Below the pieces are notes generated by a model. That model searched no databases. It was given only the letters and a program-made list of their open reading frames with translations, and was not told the DNA's origin. This document shows positions 15,691 to 28,927 of a DNA stretch of 64,000 nucleotides, one piece after another. Position 1 is the first letter of the stretch. Every line of letters begins with the position of its first letter. Made by a program: the position numbers and the translations under genes. Origin of the DNA: Gammaproteobacteria bacterium (GTDB lineage Bacteria; Pseudomonadota; Gammaproteobacteria; Pseudomonadales; Pseudohongiellaceae); assembly GCA_026710425.1 (NCBI GenBank), contig JAPORB010000244.1:4976-68975 (forward strand), given 5' to 3'.

Positions 15691-16575
15691 TCAGTTAAGT
15701 TGGGGCAGACTTTGGCTGAGTCCATTCAGAATATCTGTGCAATCATCAGCCAATTTAAGTGCAAATAGGTTGTCAGCCCGAGTCAGACCCTCATTAATGC
15801 ACAGCAGGGGAATATTCATTTGTCTGGCCTGTTTGCAAAAGCGGTAACTGGAGTAAACCATCAGCGAGGTACCTACGGCCAATAAAGCATCCACCTGCTC
15901 AAGGATTTTACTCAGATGCTTAATCATCTTAGCTTCTACAGATCCCCCGTAAAAAACCACGTTGGGTTTGAGCAAACCCCCGCAACGCGAGCAGTTTGGT
16001 ATACGCAATTTGTGGACCAGCGTATCCTGTATATGGGCATCGCCATCAGGGGCAGGCTCTGCCCCAAGGTCATCTAATCGGGGATTATGCTCCCTTAGCC
16101 AGTGCTGAATGTCATTGCGTGAATGCAGGGCATCACATTCCATGCATATTACCTGATCAAGGCGGCCATGCAAATCGAACACATGCTTTTGACCAGCCTT
16201 TTGATGCAAGCGATCTATGTTCTGCGTGACCAATGTCTGGATGTAACCCAGCTCCTCTAGCCGCACCAGTGCCCGGTGAGCCTGATTCGGTTGGGCATTG
16301 GCTACGGTGGGCCAACCATAAAAACTACGCATCCAGTAGGACTGGCGAGATGCAGGATCACTCATAAAATCGCTATGCTGAACTGGTGTTCTGCTCTGCC
16401 AGTTACCCTTAGTATCCCGATAGGCAGGAATTCCCGATTCACAACTGATGCCCGCACCCGTGATGACAAACAGTCGTGGATGATTGGCTATAAACTCTTG
16501 AAGCTCGGATAGAGTTCCTTCAGGCACTGGCTCTGGGGCAATAGGTTCAGGGTTCCTCAGTAAAATATTACGCAT
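15691..16575 (-). CDS. NAD-dependent protein deacylase, Sir2 family
   Basis: Motifs are GAGISCESGIPAYRD, TQNIDRLH and HG, plus a Zn ribbon (CMEC...CSRCGG) and the C-terminal Rossmann half VGTSLMVYS. Confidence 0.85.
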   Translation of the reverse strand: MRNILLRNPEPIAPEPVPEGTLSELQEFIANHPRLFVITGAGISCESGIPAYRDTKGNWQSRTPVQHSDFMSDPASRQSYWMRSFYGWPTVANAQPNQAHRALVRLEELGYIQTLVTQNIDRLHQKAGQKHVFDLHGRLDQVICMECDALHSRNDIQHWLREHNPRLDDLGAEPAPDGDAHIQDTLVHKLRIPNCSRCGGLLKPNVVFYGGSVEAKMIKHLSKILEQVDALLAVGTSLMVYSSYRFCKQARQMNIPLLCINEGLTRADNLFALKLADDCTDILNGLSQSLPQLN

Positions 16576-17374
16576 TCAGGAAGCCCCTGCTCGGTTTGGA
16601 AAACTCAGGCGTTTCACAATTGAGTTGAAATCAACTGACTTGTGTTTCGAGGTAGACTTATGCAAGTTAGTATCCACGTATCCTCTCAAAGTAACAGTTC
16701 CGGGAAGTATCTCGAAACCAGGATTAAATGTGGCAAGAACCGATGCCAATTCAAGCAATACCTCCCGGTCTCTTTGCAACTTAGTCGCACCTGAAAGTGC
16801 TTGATGTTCATTGATTACCCTATGCATATCACCAAAGTTATATATATGGGAGTGAGAATAGACAATGGTTATCACTGGAAACTGACCAAGATACTCTGTG
16901 GCAAGGTCGAAGGTAGCTACTACTGTTTTACTGGTAAGCAGCACATCAAAAATAATCCAGCCTCTGTCTCGTTTGACCATTGCCATATTAGCCAAATCGA
17001 AACCATGCGCCTGGTGCATGAAATACGATACCACTTCAAAAAACCCAAAATTCATATTCAGAGTTTTCTGACGTTATAGCCAGGTATATGCTGTTGAACT
17101 GCTCACCTTTAGGCAGAAAATCATAACGTCCCTTATCCCAGACTACACTGCTATTTTCGCAGGAAATCTGCCGCGTGCCTGGTTCGGCTATGAATCCTTT
17201 TGTCGCCTTAACGCCGCCTCAAATTCACGCCCGTCTTCAAATGGAAGAGTCACCCTCAATTGAGACTGCTAGGCAACTGGTGCTGACGTTTGTACCTTTG
17301 GAATTAAGATGATCTTGAGCATTGATTTTTCCTGCAAGCAACAACATCGGTATGGCAAGCAGTAAACGAGGCAT
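16576..17374 (-). pseudogene. decayed alkyl/aryl-sulfatase (SdsA1/YjcS-type MBL-fold) gene
   Basis: Three collinear pieces lie on the minus strand. (1) ATG 17374 opens a signal peptide, MPRLLLAIPMLLLAGKINAQD, that hits a stop. (2) Another frame reads PFEDGREFEAALRRQKGFIAEPG...VVWDKGRYDFLPKGE. (3) ORF 16576..17055 has GFDLANMAMVKRDRGWIIFDVLLT and a corrupted metal motif YSHSHIYNFG (expected HxHxDHxGG). It then jumps directly to the C-terminal LLELASVLATFNPGFEILPG, so several hundred residues are missing. Confidence 0.6.
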
Positions 17375-20046: not shown

Positions 20047-20123
20047 TGGTCGGGATGAGAGGATTTGAACCTCCGACCCCTGCCTCCCGAAGACAGTGCT
20101 CTACCAGGCTGAGCTACACCCCG
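20047..20123 (-). tRNA. tRNA-Pro (anticodon CGG)
   Basis: The reverse complement reads CGGGGTGTAGCTCAGCCTGGTAGAGCACTGTCTTCGGGAGGCAGGGGTCGGAGGTTCAAATCCTCTCATCCCGACCA. It has a 7-bp acceptor stem, D-arm GCTCAGCCTGGTAGAGC, anticodon stem CTGTC/GGCAG with loop TTCGGGA (CGG), T-arm GGAGGTTCAAATCCTCT and an encoded CCA, for 77 nt in total. Confidence 0.92.
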
Positions 20124-25051: not shown

Positions 25052-25757
25052 AATGATTGATGAGAATAGTCTGGCATTGTTTAATTCACTTGTAAGGAAA
25101 AGTCACATCAAGCAACTCTTTTCAGATTTGGCATTAATGCTTATTAGGCATCGTTGTTGCCGAGCAAAGCTGATGTAATCAGTCATTCCATATTGAGCAT
25201 TGGATATGACAGGAGTCATTAACCAAATGCAACAAAATACAATTGCAAATTTGTGGCCAATTCTCGAATACAATCTATCTTTATATTTTACCAATCTGTT
25301 GCATGGCAATGCTAAAAATTATTGTTGATCAGCTACAATAAACTAACTATCTATTCATAAGTTAGTACTTAATCTCAAATTAAAGCTATTTATTAGGTCA
25401 GGTATACAAAACTTGCTTTTTTAAACAGATTCTATTTTCATGCATACAAAATACAAATATTTATATATATAAATATAAGATCTCACATATAAACTTATCA
25501 TTTACTTATCAAATTAAGCAAGCTGGCAACGATTTAGTCAGATTTGAAATAAAGAGAAAAGGTCGCTTGACAAATGCTGTGGAGATATCTTGATCGGCAA
25601 CTTGAACATACGCCACTCACCTTTTGCGGATCTTTCTCCGAGGATATTTGCTTGTATCTCTGCAACTACTGAAGCCCTTTGTGGCAACTAGAACTCAGTC
25701 CATAACGGGTTATCGGTCCTTGGTTAGGTAGTGGGAGTGCTCCCTTATAAGCTGAAA

Positions 25758-28202
25758 TCATCTTGACGATAATGCAAAGCCCGCACTGTTGTGTTGTTCC
25801 ATCATCTCCTTGGCAATGACCCTGATAGCCAAGACCTCCTCTGTACCCTCAAAAATCGAAAGCACCCTCGCATCAACAAAATACCGACTCACCGCCGTTT
25901 CTTCCGCATAGCCCATTCCACCATGTAGTTGCATGGCTTCACGGGTTACCCACTCAGCAGCCCGGCAGGCAAACAGCTTCACCAGACTGGCCTCCATCTG
26001 CCCCTTACCCGCATCCATTAATCTGGCCACGGCATAGCTGAACTGGCGACAGGCAGTAATCGTGGCTAGCATTCGCGACAGTTTGAGTCGGGTCAGCTGG
26101 TAGTCTCCCAATGTATGGTTGAAAACCCTCCGCTGGGCGGTGTACTGCAAGGCCTCATCAAAAGCGGCTTGCATAAGCCCGGTGGCACGGGCTGCGGTTT
26201 GCAGTCTGCCACCAGCAAAGCCCGCCATGGTGTAGTAAAAACCCTTGCCCTGACCCTCAGCCCCGCCAAGTAAGCCCTCGGTCGGCACAAAATAGTCATC
26301 AAAAAATAGGGTATAGGAATGCATACCGCGATAACCAAGGGTTGCAATCGCTTTACCGCTAAATACACCTCCCTGAGGTTGACTATGGCTGAACTCATGT
26401 CCCTTAAAAGTCGGTTTTTCCACCAGAAACAGGCTCAGACCCCGATGCCCATTGGGATCCTGACCGGTACGGGCCAGCACTAAGACCAATTCCGAACGGC
26501 CTGCAAAGGTACACCAGGTTTTGCTGCCATTGAGCAACCAACCACCCTCACAGGCACTGGCACGCAAGGATACTGCTGCAACATCAGAACCGGTATCCGG
26601 TTCGGTGATGGAAATCGCACACAGTTTTTCACCACTGGCCAGCATAGGCAACCAGGTTTGTTGTTGCTCTTGTGTACCGCCAGCCAGCAGAGCACGAGCA
26701 GCTATTTCAGGCCTGGTAATCAGACTGCCCGCCGCACCAAGGGAACCGCGTGAAAGCTCCTCGGTCACAATAATCATGCTCATGCTGTCGGGCTTTTCAT
26801 CCGGCTGCAAACCACCAAATCGCTCGGGAATACAGGTCCCAAAGCATCCCAGATTAGCAGCAGTTTCAATTAGGGTGTCGGGTACATCCTGGTCCTGTCG
26901 ATGAATTGCTTCTGCCAATGGTGCCACATCAGCCTCGGCAAAGCGCTGGAAGTTACTGCGCACTTGCTCATAGCTTTCATCCAAGCCTGATTCAAGACAA
27001 GTGATGCCAGCCTCAATACAGCGTGTAGCCAGCTGCTCAAATCCATCGGCTGACTTCAGCAAGTCATTCAAATCATCATCAGCCAAGAGTGCCCGAACCT
27101 CTTGCGAATCCAAACCAAGCATCGCACCTTCAGTTACAAAACTGCTAAGGATTGATTTGATAGTCTCAACACAGAATCCGAGGGCGCAGGGAGCAAGCAG
27201 CGGAGCCTGTGGAGATGTCTTGGCATGCTCCAACAGAACTTGCGCTGCTTTCAGCTCTGCCGAGACGACAGCAAGGGTGTAGCAGCGACTTTGTTGTTGG
27301 TCAAATAGGTTTTCATCCAGTTTGCCTTTGCGGTACATATCCTCTTTGGCTGCATGCACGGCAGTTTGCAGCTGGTGCGATACCTTCTCCTCCAAGACAT
27401 AACTTGCCCGGTCCAGTTGTATCCGCTCTGGGGACCTGTGAGCACTTGGTAAATCATGATGAGTCTTCTTCTTTAGTGTCGTTGGTCTATGGTGAGGAGC
27501 ATTAAACCCGCTGTAAGGTACATCTTTCGATATTTCAGGATACCAAGGCTTGCCCCAATCCTGATCTGGATTGCTCATCATGACACTAACAAAGACTGGC
27601 ACCAAAGAATCAAGAATTTTAGTTCCATCACAAACTTGATTTCGATTCCAGTTACTATCCCATGTTGCTCCACCATGGACTAACTGATTTCTCAGTACAT
27701 TTAATCTTCTGAAAATCTTTATTAATGCTTTCTCTATGTTGTGCCCTTTCATCATTTTGTGAAAATAAACATTGTCATTTTCAAAATGAGATTCCCAACT
27801 TTTATAACTATTTAGTCCGTGTTGAGAATCCCAAAACCGCCTGAATATAAATCGATTTCCCATTAAATCTTGTATAAGGATAGAGAATTTTTTCAGATAA
27901 CCTTTAATTATATTTTGTGCATCCCTAGTCACAATATCCGTTAAAAATGATTCTCGGATTTTAAATTCTTTTCCTCTCTCACAATTAGTATCTGCATGAA
28001 GAGCATCAAAAGCTATCCATAGAAAAATATATTTTCCATCACTATCATCTGTATCTTTGGCGCGCTTAATCCAACTCAAAGCACGTCTAATGCGATGACT
28101 GAAGTCCTGTTTGAAAGCATGTTTGTTCTCATCATACTTCTTTTTTAGCTCGTCATAGCTCGGTGGTTTTTCCATGGAATATTTACCTCGAATATATTTC
28201 AT
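25758..28202 (-). CDS. long acyl-CoA dehydrogenase (methylsuccinyl-CoA dehydrogenase-like architecture) preceded in the same ORF by a low-GC HEPN-like module
   Basis: The C-terminal ~555 aa form an ACAD (TEPDTGSDVAA, WCTFAG, GGRLQTAARA, IFEGTEEV) with a helical N-terminal extension. Residues 1 to ~230 are a different, AT-rich module containing LRNQLVHGG (Rx4H). The best start is ATG 28178, with GAGGT 10 nt upstream. An internal alternative is ATG 27338, which has a poorly spaced AGAGG. Confidence 0.7.
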   Translation of the reverse strand: MKYIRGKYSMEKPPSYDELKKKYDENKHAFKQDFSHRIRRALSWIKRAKDTDDSDGKYIFLWIAFDALHADTNCERGKEFKIRESFLTDIVTRDAQNIIKGYLKKFSILIQDLMGNRFIFRRFWDSQHGLNSYKSWESHFENDNVYFHKMMKGHNIEKALIKIFRRLNVLRNQLVHGGATWDSNWNRNQVCDGTKILDSLVPVFVSVMMSNPDQDWGKPWYPEISKDVPYSGFNAPHHRPTTLKKKTHHDLPSAHRSPERIQLDRASYVLEEKVSHQLQTAVHAAKEDMYRKGKLDENLFDQQQSRCYTLAVVSAELKAAQVLLEHAKTSPQAPLLAPCALGFCVETIKSILSSFVTEGAMLGLDSQEVRALLADDDLNDLLKSADGFEQLATRCIEAGITCLESGLDESYEQVRSNFQRFAEADVAPLAEAIHRQDQDVPDTLIETAANLGCFGTCIPERFGGLQPDEKPDSMSMIIVTEELSRGSLGAAGSLITRPEIAARALLAGGTQEQQQTWLPMLASGEKLCAISITEPDTGSDVAAVSLRASACEGGWLLNGSKTWCTFAGRSELVLVLARTGQDPNGHRGLSLFLVEKPTFKGHEFSHSQPQGGVFSGKAIATLGYRGMHSYTLFFDDYFVPTEGLLGGAEGQGKGFYYTMAGFAGGRLQTAARATGLMQAAFDEALQYTAQRRVFNHTLGDYQLTRLKLSRMLATITACRQFSYAVARLMDAGKGQMEASLVKLFACRAAEWVTREAMQLHGGMGYAEETAVSRYFVDARVLSIFEGTEEVLAIRVIAKEMMEQHNSAGFALSSR

Positions 28203-28456
28203 CCCTATGATTATTCGCTAACTTTCTGCAAAAAGAGTGAAGCAAACGGGGGATACTATTAGGCCTTTAATAATCTTTACCTTTTTTGAGCCGTAGGGCA
28301 GGAATCAGTCACTTGATATCACACCCAGACTCGAATCTCTGACAACGCCTGAATTTTAATGCTGATGTACCTAATCAGTCCCAATGTAATGCTGGTAACC
28401 TTTTACCGATATGCTCTTGCCCGCATAGAGATGATTCAAGGGCTAACCCAGACCAT

Positions 28457-28927
28457 TTAGCCCAGTTGCTTGACCATAAGCAAAGTCTCCTCACCATAGA
28501 CCGTAAGCCTTTCCAATGGCTTCCATCCAAGAGAGGTATACAATCCCCCGCTAAGATTCTGGGTTTGCAAATGCAAGTGCGGCAAACCCCTTGATTGAGC
28601 CAGTTCAACTATGTATTGAGTAATGCTCGAACCCAACTTTCTTCCCCGACAACTTGGCTCCACAAAAACGCTTCCAAGCCAATAACGTCGTTTTGGAAAT
28701 AATTTCTCAAGTTCATGCAACTTCATTACAGCTATGGCTACTGGTTGTTCATCCTGCAAGGCCAGCATGTGTACCGGAAAGTCCTTGCGCTTCAGCAACC
28801 GATGCAAGTGAATTTCAAGCGAACGGAAATCTGAGCCCATACGCTCACTCCAGACACTGTGCCACCAGCGAATAACCAGTGGTATATACTCCTGGCGTTG
28901 AGCAAGGTTCTGAAACTGCAAATGCAT
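28457..28927 (-). CDS. GNAT-family N-acetyltransferase
   Basis: 156 aa with acetyl-CoA motif A: VFVEPSCRGRKLGSSITQYIVELAQSRG. Confidence 0.7.
   Translation of the reverse strand: MHLQFQNLAQRQEYIPLVIRWWHSVWSERMGSDFRSLEIHLHRLLKRKDFPVHMLALQDEQPVAIAVMKLHELEKLFPKRRYWLGSVFVEPSCRGRKLGSSITQYIVELAQSRGLPHLHLQTQNLSGGLYTSLGWKPLERLTVYGEETLLMVKQLG

What the first reader, a model, noticed from the sequence alone, without database searches (positions are those of the whole stretch)
27338..28202. Low-GC HEPN-like module (Rx4H) fused in frame to the 5' end of an acyl-CoA dehydrogenase gene
Seen: the 814-aa ORF is compositionally two genes. A hand count of the 60-nt line at 27721 gives 17 G+C (28%), whereas the line at 26161, inside the ACAD core, gives 37 G+C (62%). 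The switch occurs near 27480-27530. The AT-rich part has its own good start (ATG 28178, with GAGGT 10 nt upstream). It encodes a K/N/F-rich ~230-aa helical module: ...RIRRALSWIKRAKD...YIFLWIAFDALHA...IFRRLNVLRNQLVHGGATWD.... No stop codon separates it from the ACAD. The linker is PHHRPTTLKKKTHHDLPSAHRSPER. The only internal ATG with any Shine-Dalgarno-like sequence is 27338, which has a 2-nt spacing and would clip the ACAD's N-terminal extension.

Established: R-[N/D/H]-x3-H in a C-terminal helix of a four-helix module is the HEPN RNase/nucleotide-binding signature. It is common in toxin-antitoxin, abortive-infection and other conflict systems.

Inference: a laterally acquired HEPN-type module has become translationally fused to a metabolic dehydrogenase, or its stop codon was lost. 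I know of no described HEPN-ACAD architecture. It could be a regulatory or toxin domain tethered to a metabolic enzyme, or a decaying insertion.
Basis: partly seen in the sequence, partly recalled or inferred. Interest (0 to 1): 0.7.

Follow-up and report, generated by a model that had tools for sequence, protein, structure and literature searches.

The report
HEPN-like gene fused to acyl-CoA dehydrogenase
A foreign, AT-rich gene for a putative RNA-cutting (HEPN-like) protein has landed just upstream of a metabolic dehydrogenase gene and lost its stop codon, giving one 814-residue reading frame that recurs in one narrow bacterial lineage but has no demonstrated joint function.

Summary
ORF 25758..28202 (-) is 814 aa. 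Its first ~233 codons have 35% GC; the rest have 53%.

Residues 10-232 are a full-length homologue (E 1e-55) of an unmodelled family of solitary ~220-231-aa proteins. These carry an invariant R-N-Q-x-x-H-G motif and give only sub-threshold hits to HEPN models. Stand-alone members stop exactly where the window reads on.

Residues ~258-814 are a (2S)-methylsuccinyl-CoA-dehydrogenase-like enzyme with its native N-terminal extension. About 25 disordered codons of former spacer join the two.

The fusion is not an artefact. The same junction occurs in three other fetched assemblies, and a fourth database protein spans it. There are two alleles.

Orthologues at 77% identity or less are unfused and hold other genes in that slot.

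Replacements between the alleles avoid the family's conserved positions (P about 1e-4 to 1e-3), so the module is translated and constrained.

The window allele has AAG where the sister allele has an ATG at the ancestral dehydrogenase start.

Structure searches did not confirm a HEPN fold, and no function for the fusion is shown.

A perfect 16-nt inverted repeat brackets the cassette and is unexplained.

The parts
25758..28202 (-). 814-aa chimeric ORF (HEPN-like module + linker + MCD-like acyl-CoA dehydrogenase)
   Evidence: The same ORF is present in L001, L009 and L010.
27504..28175 (-). HEPN-like module, aa 10-233, 35% GC. It is a full-length homologue of a solitary ~220-231-aa family.
28185..28189 (-). 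GAGGT, 9 nt upstream of ATG 28175. This is the probable true start, where homologues begin.
27675..27692 (-). Codons R171-N-Q-L-V-H176, the R-N-x3-H motif. In the family R and Q are invariant, N is 98% and H 97% conserved.
27432..27503 (-). Linker, aa 234-257. It is read-through of the former spacer, predicted disordered, and the most diverged stretch between alleles.
27468..27470 (-). AAG (K245). The sister allele has an in-frame ATG here, at the position where orthologous dehydrogenases start.
26979..27431 (-). Native N-terminal extension of the MCD-type dehydrogenase, aa 258-408
   Evidence: PMC5798300
25758..26978 (-). Canonical ACAD core (Pfam N, M and C domains), aa 409-814, plus stop
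27393..27395 (-). TTG (L270), a possible internal start. It is CTG in the sister allele.
27336..27338 (-). ATG (M289) with GAGG 2 nt upstream, a possible weak internal start. It would clip about 11 residues of the part of the N-extension that aligns with the solved MCD.
27484..27499 (.). Arm of a perfect 16-nt inverted repeat. It begins 2 codons after the end of HEPN homology.
28487..28502 (.). Other arm of the inverted repeat, inside the native 3' coding end of the GNAT gene (codons VYGEE)
28457..28927 (-). GNAT acetyltransferase gene upstream. It is syntenic in all relatives.
25052..25757 (.). AT-rich gene-free spacer downstream of the ORF. It holds a druA gene in sister strain L009.

Best explanation
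Shown:
- A horizontally acquired, AT-rich copy of a normally solitary, uncharacterised HEPN-like gene sits in the variable slot between a GNAT gene and a methylsuccinyl-CoA-dehydrogenase-like (MCD-like) gene, in the same orientation.
- It ends about 35 nt upstream of where that gene's start codon lies in the sister allele and in orthologues.
- It has no stop codon where its relatives have one. Translation from ATG 28175 therefore runs through about 25 codons of former spacer into the dehydrogenase frame.
- The arrangement is heritable. It occurs in several assemblies and two alleles, but only in one narrow lineage.
- Replacements in the HEPN-like part avoid the family's conserved positions.
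- The window allele lacks the ATG at the ancestral dehydrogenase start.

Inferred:
- In the window the dehydrogenase is made mainly as an 805-814-aa fusion: HEPN-like domain, flexible linker, MCD. Weak internal initiation may add a little.
- The HEPN-like domain is a latent RNase of the conflict or defence type. It came along by an accident of insertion and was not designed as a regulator of the enzyme.

Not shown: RNase activity, or any functional coupling between the two halves.
For: Composition:
- HEPN part 35% GC, ACAD 53%.

Homology of the N-terminal module:
- Full-length homology of aa 10-232 to solitary 220-231-aa proteins, E 2e-55, 46% identity. About 1,360 cluster representatives match.
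- The closest homologues end at ...SG[A/V]-stop, aligned with window S231-G232.
- The invariant R40, W44, W62, R171, Q173 and G177, and the R-N-Q-x-x-H motif, are all kept.
- Sub-threshold matches converge on HEPN models: PF18735 in 40/113 members (best E 2e-5); PADLOC CARF_HEPN/Csx1 models with 59 member hits, counted per model; Cas13e 3; ApeA.

The dehydrogenase part:
- It matches solved MCD 8ciw at E 2.5e-161 from chain residue 21, which corresponds to ORF aa 278.
- MCD has a native ~170-aa N-extension and is a homodimer (PMC5798300).
- Orthologues P0122 to P0125 are 569-578 aa and unfused. Their starts map to ORF aa about 245-249.

The fusion recurs:
- It is present in L001, L009 (a 1.13-Mb contig), L010 and protein P0391.

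Selection and linker:
- The 18-19 replacements between alleles fall in weakly conserved family columns (permutation P 0.0001-0.0015).
- The window deviates at only 4 of 36 columns that are at least 90% conserved, which is within the family range.
- The linker has pLDDT 24-29, and a confident helix starts at ORF aa 258.
- Codon 245 is ATG in allele 2 and AAG in the window.
Against: - There are no transcript or peptide data.
- Overall dN/dS of the HEPN part between alleles is 0.8, from only 6 synonymous and 21 non-synonymous changes.
- Keeping the linker open despite about 27 substitutions and one 3-nt indel is not statistically remarkable: P about 0.45 for no stop, times 1/3 for the indel.
- Many native genes in this genome lack a Shine-Dalgarno sequence. 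Internal starts at TTG 27395 or ATG 27338 (ATG245 in allele 2) therefore cannot be excluded.
- The window's module deviates at two positions that are 96% conserved in the family (N66D, Y69H).
- Foldseek found no HEPN structure, so the RNase assignment rests on motif and weak profile hits.
- The two alleles are almost identical outside the block 26988-28285. The intact ACAD core therefore says little about selection.
Confidence: 0.68

Rival explanations
1. Two proteins in practice. The long ORF is only formal. The dehydrogenase is translated on its own from an internal start: ATG245 in the sister allele, TTG270 or ATG289 in the window. The read-through HEPN product is minor, unstable, or cut in the disordered linker.
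For: - Allele 2 keeps an in-frame ATG exactly where orthologues start.
- The window has a TTG at codon 270 that allele 2 lacks.
- Everything that aligns with the solved MCD starts at aa 278, so a TTG270 product would be complete.
- Native genes here often lack a Shine-Dalgarno sequence.
- NCBI's pipeline called a sister copy from an internal Met.
- The linker is predicted disordered.
Against: - There is no stop to release ribosomes coming from the HEPN start, so a fusion product must be made whenever the HEPN part is translated. The selection test indicates that it is translated.
- The window has lost the ancestral ATG.
- None of the internal candidates has a usable ribosome-binding site.
Confidence: 0.3
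2. Decaying insertion. The HEPN module is a dead remnant on its way to pseudogenisation, and the fusion is a neutral by-product in a genome under weak selection.
For: - dN/dS is 0.8 between alleles, and substitutions are spread almost evenly over codon positions: 32, 28 and 36.
- N66D and Y69H fall at 96%-conserved positions.
- The lineage is very narrow.
Against: - There is no stop or frameshift in 223 codons in any of the four ORF sequences recovered.
- All residues that are invariant in the family are kept, including the R-N-Q-x-x-H motif.
- Replacements avoid conserved columns (P about 1e-4 to 1e-3).
- The number of deviations from the family consensus is within the family range.
Confidence: 0.12
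3. Invertible cassette. The 16-nt inverted repeats are recombination sites. Flipping 27500-28486 would switch between the fused state and a state with a stand-alone HEPN gene, a slightly shortened GNAT and an unfused dehydrogenase.
For: - The perfect 16-nt inverted repeat exceeds all 500 shuffles and sits exactly at the junction.
- In-silico inversion ends the HEPN ORF at ...APHHRP-TAA, ends the GNAT at ...VYGEEH-TAA, and leaves a 545-aa dehydrogenase ORF.
- Gene-overlapping invertons are documented (bioRxiv 10.1101/2023.03.11.532203).
Against: - All four fetched assemblies are in the fused orientation.
- No product of the inverted state is in the 15-billion-protein collection.
- Allele 2 has only 13 of 16 arm positions.
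- No recombinase was seen among the neighbours examined.
- The GNAT tail of the present state is the ancestral one.
Confidence: 0.07
4. Assembly or sequencing artefact at the junction (chimeric join or homopolymer error).
For: - There is a sharp compositional switch.
- GGG TTT AAT would read GGG GTT TAA, giving ...SGV-stop as in homologue P0007, if one more G were present.
Against: - The same junction is present in independent short-read scaffolds, in a 1.13-Mb contig from a third sample, and in a further database protein. It occurs in two alleles that differ by about 25% in the linker.
Confidence: 0.01

Closest known systems
RiboL-PSP-HEPN (Pfam PF18735) and the wider HEPN RNase superfamily (Csx1/Csm6 HEPN domains, ApeA, Cas13)
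   Same: - All-alpha protein with an invariant R-N-x3-H motif.
- 40 of 113 family members give their best Pfam hit to PF18735. Others hit CARF_HEPN/Csx1, ApeA and Cas13e models over the motif region.
- Solitary genes that are AT-rich relative to their hosts and lie beside toxin-antitoxin and restriction-modification genes.
   Different: - No member reaches the curated PF18735 threshold.
- The window's own copy hits no model.
- No structural match was found.
- There is no L-PSP domain and no ParB neighbour, which are the associations reported for that family (PMC3710099).
(2S)-methylsuccinyl-CoA dehydrogenase (PDB 8ciw; PdMCD 6es9)
   Same: - ACAD core plus a homologous ~150-170-aa N-terminal extension.
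- E 2.5e-161 to 8ciw.
- Next to a family III CoA-transferase.
   Different: - It carries an extra ~250-residue N-terminal addition that no orthologue has.
- No NCBIfam equivalog threshold is met.
- The MaoC hydratase found next to more distant relatives is absent.
HEPN-MNT (HepT/MntA) type II/VII toxin-antitoxin modules
   Same: Small HEPN protein with an Rx4H motif, on mobile or variable DNA.
   Different: No MNT or other conserved partner gene lies next to the window copy or next to the three homologues examined. The family is about 220 aa, against about 130 aa for HepT by my recollection (not checked here).
Gene fusions created by stop-codon loss between adjacent co-oriented genes
   Same: - The upstream gene ends exactly where its relatives stop.
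- A short former spacer is read in frame.
- The downstream gene keeps its full length.
- The distribution is narrow.
   Different: The partners are unrelated in function and origin: a foreign conflict-type gene and a native metabolic gene. The downstream start codon is lost in one allele.

Membership tests
HEPN superfamily | Conserved Rx4-6H motif (often R-N/D/H-x3-H) | tested here: met
   R171-N-Q-L-V-H176. In 112 homologues R is 100%, N 98%, Q 100% and H 97% conserved.
HEPN superfamily | Significant profile match to a curated HEPN model | tested here: inconclusive
   - The window module has no Pfam or NCBIfam hit. It has PADLOC CARF_HEPN hits at E 0.0013-0.018.
- Among family members, PF18735 is hit by 40/113 with best E 2e-5, at 25 bits against a cut-off of 28.4.
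HEPN superfamily | Four-helix up-and-down HEPN fold | tested here: inconclusive
   The AlphaFold model has pLDDT 94.6, is all-alpha and has 10 helices. Foldseek against PDB and BFVD gave no hit at E <= 0.001; the best TM-scores were 0.1-0.2. Coordinates could not be inspected by hand.
HEPN superfamily | Metal-independent RNase activity that depends on the R and H residues | not testable with these tools
   Needs biochemistry.
Pfam PF18735 RiboL-PSP-HEPN | Score at or above the gathering threshold (28.4 bits) | tested here: not met
   Best family member scores 25.0 bits. The window copy has no hit.
HEPN-MNT toxin-antitoxin | Adjacent MNT (nucleotidyltransferase) antitoxin gene | tested here: not met
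   The window's neighbours are a GNAT gene and the ACAD. The contexts of homologues P0002, P0018 and P0007 share no partner.
(2S)-methylsuccinyl-CoA dehydrogenase-type ACAD | ACAD N, M and C domains | tested here: met
   PF02771, PF02770 and PF00441 at aa 409-800, E 4e-23 to 7e-42.
(2S)-methylsuccinyl-CoA dehydrogenase-type ACAD | ~170-aa N-terminal extension homologous to that of MCD | tested here: met
   Aligned with 8ciw from chain residue 21 (ORF aa 278), E 2.5e-161. pLDDT is about 95 for aa 258-400. The extension is described in PMC5798300.
(2S)-methylsuccinyl-CoA dehydrogenase-type ACAD | Substrate-binding arginine cluster and activity on methylsuccinyl-CoA | not tested
   Residue-level comparison was not done. 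No NCBIfam equivalog cut-off is reached.
Inverton (site-specific invertible segment) | Pair of inverted repeats flanking the segment | tested here: met
   16/16-nt inverted repeat at 27484-27499 and 28487-28502. None of 500 shuffles reaches 16 nt.
Inverton (site-specific invertible segment) | Both orientations observed in a population | tested here: not met
   Only the fused orientation is seen in 4 assemblies. No inverted-state protein is in the collection. Reads were not available.

The most novel reading that the evidence does not exclude
The 16-nt inverted repeats that bracket the cassette are recombination sites of a gene-overlapping inverton. It would toggle the locus between two states. 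In one, a free-standing HEPN RNase gene is convergent with a slightly shortened GNAT and the dehydrogenase is unfused. In the other, the RNase is tethered to the N-terminus of an obligately dimeric dehydrogenase. This would be a phase-variable way of arming or disarming a toxin or defence domain.
Probability: 0.06. Interest if true: 0.8.

Novelty: new variant of a known kind. Interest (0 to 1): 0.42.

Why it matters
If the 90-kDa product is made, it is a natural case of a conflict-type RNase domain attached to a dimeric FAD enzyme. This architecture is not mentioned in the HEPN survey consulted. HEPN RNases are generally understood to act as dimers (established knowledge, not tested here), so it could show how tethering to a dimer affects a HEPN nuclease.

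More broadly, it documents three things:
- A large family of solitary HEPN-like proteins that has no curated model (about 1,360 representatives at 50% clustering).
- How a foreign gene can be welded to a housekeeping gene by landing a few dozen bases upstream without a stop.
- How standard annotation hides this: NCBI calls the sister copy a plain dehydrogenase from an internal Met.

The fusion is confined to one narrow lineage and no function is shown, so its general importance is modest.

Tried and rejected
- **Misassembly or homopolymer error:** rejected. The junction recurs in independent assemblies and in two alleles.
- **Programmed -1 frameshift at GGGTTTA:** the heptamer is not in the register needed for tandem slippage from the HEPN frame (reading). 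Not pursued.
- **Diversity-generating retroelement as the cause of the local hypervariability:** the substitution spectrum has no adenine bias, and no template repeat is present in the window.
- **ATG 27457 as the dehydrogenase start:** it is out of frame and not conserved in allele 2.
- **Structure-based confirmation of a HEPN fold:** Foldseek against PDB and BFVD gave nothing significant. A profile search of PDB sequences gave only ApeA at E 0.38.
- **Search for the species or further alleles:** protein-pattern and exact-DNA scans of GTDB genomes and JGI metagenomes found nothing.
- **Remnants of the MaoC hydratase or DUF1801 genes of relatives:** none in the window.
- **Longer HEPN-family proteins as precedents for enzyme fusions:** ten members of 288-528 aa have no other Pfam domain.
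- **Promoter and terminator scan:** counts are at chance level.
- **Ancestral hairpin in relatives that could explain the inverted repeat:** not found. There is only a 12/16 resemblance next to the start codon in L012.
Full report
**1. The observation**

- The minus-strand ORF 25758..28202 encodes 814 aa with no internal stop.
- GC is 0.29-0.37 across 27600-28200 and 0.50-0.575 through the dehydrogenase.
- The bin 27601-28200 is the most AT-rich 600 nt in the window. The second most AT-rich bin is the spacer on the other side of the same gene.
- Two corrections are needed. The start that matches homologues is ATG 28175, not 28178. GAGGT lies 9 nt upstream of it.

**2. The two halves**

*The dehydrogenase*
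- Pfam finds the three ACAD domains at aa 409-800 and nothing in aa 1-240. NCBIfam agrees.
- The C-terminal 581 residues match about 560-580-aa proteins, some of which JGI labels (2S)-methylsuccinyl-CoA dehydrogenase.
- They match the solved MCD 8ciw at E 2.5e-161, from chain residue 21, which corresponds to ORF residue 278.
- MCD is a homodimer with a native ~170-residue N-terminal extension (PMC5798300). Residues ~258-408 are therefore part of the enzyme and not of the addition.

*The N-terminal module*
- The N-terminal 240 residues hit 1,234 proteins in the word-index search and 1,364 representatives in the exhaustive search. Nearly all are 210-250 aa. The best is E 2e-55 at 46% identity.
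- The alignment shows that the module is complete. The closest stand-alone proteins end at ...Y-P-V-V-S-x4-S-G-[A/V]-stop, aligned with window S231-G232.
- The family has six invariant residues: R40, W44, W62, R171, Q173 and G177. It carries the motif R-N-Q-L-x-H-G-G.

**3. Is it HEPN?**

*Evidence for*
- The motif is present.
- NCBI names some members "HEPN domain-containing protein".
- 40 of 113 members give sub-threshold hits to PF18735 RiboL-PSP-HEPN. The best is E 2e-5 at 25 bits, against a cut-off of 28.4.
- There are 59 member-to-model hits to PADLOC CARF_HEPN/Csx1 models (counted per model), over the HEPN part of those models.
- A few members hit Cas13e, ApeA or Cthe_2314-HEPN.
- A profile of the family hits ApeA 9hxl at the motif, at E 0.38.

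*Evidence against or missing*
- The window's own sequence hits no Pfam or NCBIfam model.
- A confident model (pLDDT 94.6, ten helices) has no significant Foldseek match in PDB or BFVD.

I therefore call it HEPN-like. It is probably a distant relative of the RiboL-PSP-HEPN / AbiD-F clade described in PMC3710099, but it is not a demonstrated member.

**4. The junction**

- Between G232 and about residue 258 lie roughly 25 codons with no homologue.
- They are predicted disordered: pLDDT is 24-29, and a confident helix starts at ORF residue 258.
- The N-termini of orthologues map to ORF residues about 245-249.
- The foreign gene therefore ends about 35 nt upstream of the ancestral dehydrogenase start, and the former spacer is read in frame.
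- GGG TTT AAT contains TAA in another frame. One extra G would give ...S-G-V-stop, as in homologue P0007. This is a plausible route to stop loss but is not demonstrable.
- By chance, a spacer of this composition stays open for 12 codons with P about 0.5 and for 37 codons with P about 0.14. An accidental in-frame fusion is therefore unremarkable.

**5. Real and heritable, but narrow**

*Other copies*
- The ACAD query recovered P0121 (813 aa). Its 90% cluster holds P0392 (814 aa), P0393 (804 aa) and P0391 (606 aa).
- P0391 is NCBI MCY4358900.1, called from internal M209.
- The contigs are two sponge-study scaffolds (ROBB21, two samples) and a 1.13-Mb contig from a third sample. They show the same GNAT-fusion-CoA-transferase synteny.

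*Unfused relatives*
- Orthologues at 77%, 71% and 69% identity are unfused. They hold DUF1801/OmdA in the slot, with or without a second GNAT or a LigT gene.
- No stand-alone copy closer than about 50% identity exists in 1.84 billion representatives.
- GTDB genomes and JGI metagenomes hold nothing related.

**6. Two alleles and selection**

*Divergence pattern*
- The window and L010 form one allele. L001 and L009 form the other.
- Outside 26988-28285 they differ at 0-3 positions per 100 nt, mostly 0 or 1. Inside it there are 109 substitutions and two indels.
- The divergence is patchy: 24/100 in the linker, 1-8/100 in the HEPN part, and 11-13/100 in the MCD N-extension.

*Nei-Gojobori estimates*

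| Segment | dN/dS | Notes |
|---|---|---|
| HEPN part | 0.80 | 6 synonymous, 21 non-synonymous changes |
| Linker | 0.56 | |
| MCD N-extension | 0.36 | |
| ACAD core | not defined | one difference in 406 codons |

*Tests*
- The 18-19 replacements in the HEPN part fall in the family's weakly conserved columns (permutation P 0.0001-0.0015).
- The window deviates at 4 of 36 columns that are at least 90% conserved: F58Y, N66D, Y69H and Y168N. This is within the family range.
- I read this as a module that is translated and constrained, not as a dead remnant.
- The linker stays open in both alleles, with one 3-nt indel, but that has little statistical weight.

**7. Which protein is made?**

- Allele 2 has an in-frame ATG at codon 245, where orthologues start. 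The window has AAG there.
- The window has TTG at codon 270, which is CTG in allele 2. It also has ATG289 with GAGG 2 nt upstream. No candidate has a usable ribosome-binding site.
- Several native genes also lack one, so internal initiation cannot be excluded.
- Nothing stops ribosomes that start at 28175, so a fusion polypeptide must be produced whenever the HEPN part is translated.
- My best reading is that in the window the enzyme is made largely as the fusion (inference).

**8. Context of the family**

- Three stand-alone homologues share no neighbour.
- One abuts a peptidase M3 gene and lies next to Phd/YefM and PIN genes. One lies beside an HTH-methylase-XhoI restriction module. One sits among transport genes.
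- Two of the three are clearly AT-rich relative to their flanks (0.40 vs 0.62 and 0.47 vs 0.54). The third is only slightly so (0.57 vs 0.60).
- This fits a mobile, solitary conflict or defence gene with no antitoxin partner. It does not fit HEPN-MNT.
- In L009 a druA gene occupies the AT-rich spacer downstream of the dehydrogenase. Both flanks of this enzyme gene are therefore insertion slots.

**9. Unexplained: the inverted repeat**

- GGTCTATGGTGAGGAG at 27484-27499 is perfectly complementary to 28487-28502. No shuffle out of 500 reaches 16 nt.
- One arm is native GNAT coding sequence, conserved in L002. The other begins two codons after HEPN homology ends.
- Inverting the intervening 987 nt in silico gives three results:
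  - a 240-aa HEPN ORF ending ...APHHRP-TAA;
  - a GNAT ending ...VYGEEH-TAA;
  - a 545-aa dehydrogenase ORF.
- Evidence against an active inverton:
  - Only the fused orientation is seen.
  - No inverted-state protein is on record.
  - Allele 2 has 13/16 of the arm.
  - No recombinase was seen among the neighbours examined.
  - The present GNAT tail is the ancestral one.
- I keep it as a low-probability novel reading.

**10. Verdict**

- The finding is real and correctly described.
  - "HEPN-type" is probable but not proven.
  - "Laterally acquired and stop lost" is well supported.
  - "Decaying" is disfavoured.
  - A designed regulatory or toxin tether is untested and unlikely, given the narrow distribution.
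- It is a new architectural variant arising from an ordinary process.

Noticed in passing
window 27484-27499 and 28487-28502: A perfect 16-nt inverted repeat brackets the HEPN cassette. One arm lies in the GNAT 3' coding end, the other at the HEPN/linker junction. In-silico inversion closes all three ORFs within 1-2 codons of the arms.
   Followed up: partly
window 26988-28285 vs L001/L009: This block carries 109 substitutions plus 2 indels between strains that are otherwise about 99.8% identical. The divergence is patchy and shows no adenine bias. It suggests recombination with unsampled alleles at a hypervariable locus.
   Followed up: partly
window 25052-25757; L009 6785-9109: A gene-free, AT-rich 706-nt spacer (GC down to 0.235) lies downstream of the dehydrogenase. 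The sister strain L009 carries a 774-aa DruA (Druantia) gene inserted there. More distant relatives have a MaoC hydratase at this position, and no remnant of it is left in the window.
   Followed up: partly
L002 5037-5648; L011 1681-2283; L012 2235-2837: In unfused relatives the slot between the GNAT and the dehydrogenase holds a DUF1801/OmdA gene, with or without a second acetyltransferase or a LigT gene. The slot is therefore variable.
   Followed up: yes
protein P0391 (NCBI MCY4358900.1), sister MAG: NCBI annotation calls the same ORF from internal Met209 as a 606-aa 'acyl-CoA/acyl-ACP dehydrogenase'. The next accession is the GNAT, so the HEPN part is invisible in the public annotation.
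   Followed up: partly
window 15691-16575 (-) and 16576-17055 (-): A SIR2-family ORF lies directly adjacent to a 159-aa ORF with no Pfam match. This could be an ordinary sirtuin or a defence pair.
   Followed up: no
window 20050-20123 (-): A single tRNA gene. It is the only Rfam match in the window.
   Followed up: no
L003 2144-4720; L007 1-4696: Two stand-alone HEPN homologues lie downstream of a peptidase M3 gene. In L003 the HEPN start directly follows the peptidase stop. This may be a shared insertion site.
   Followed up: no
The word-index protein search with the HEPN module did not return the near-identical fusion proteins. They surfaced only through the ACAD query and the cluster look-up. 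Absence from that tool's list is therefore not evidence of absence.
   Followed up: yes
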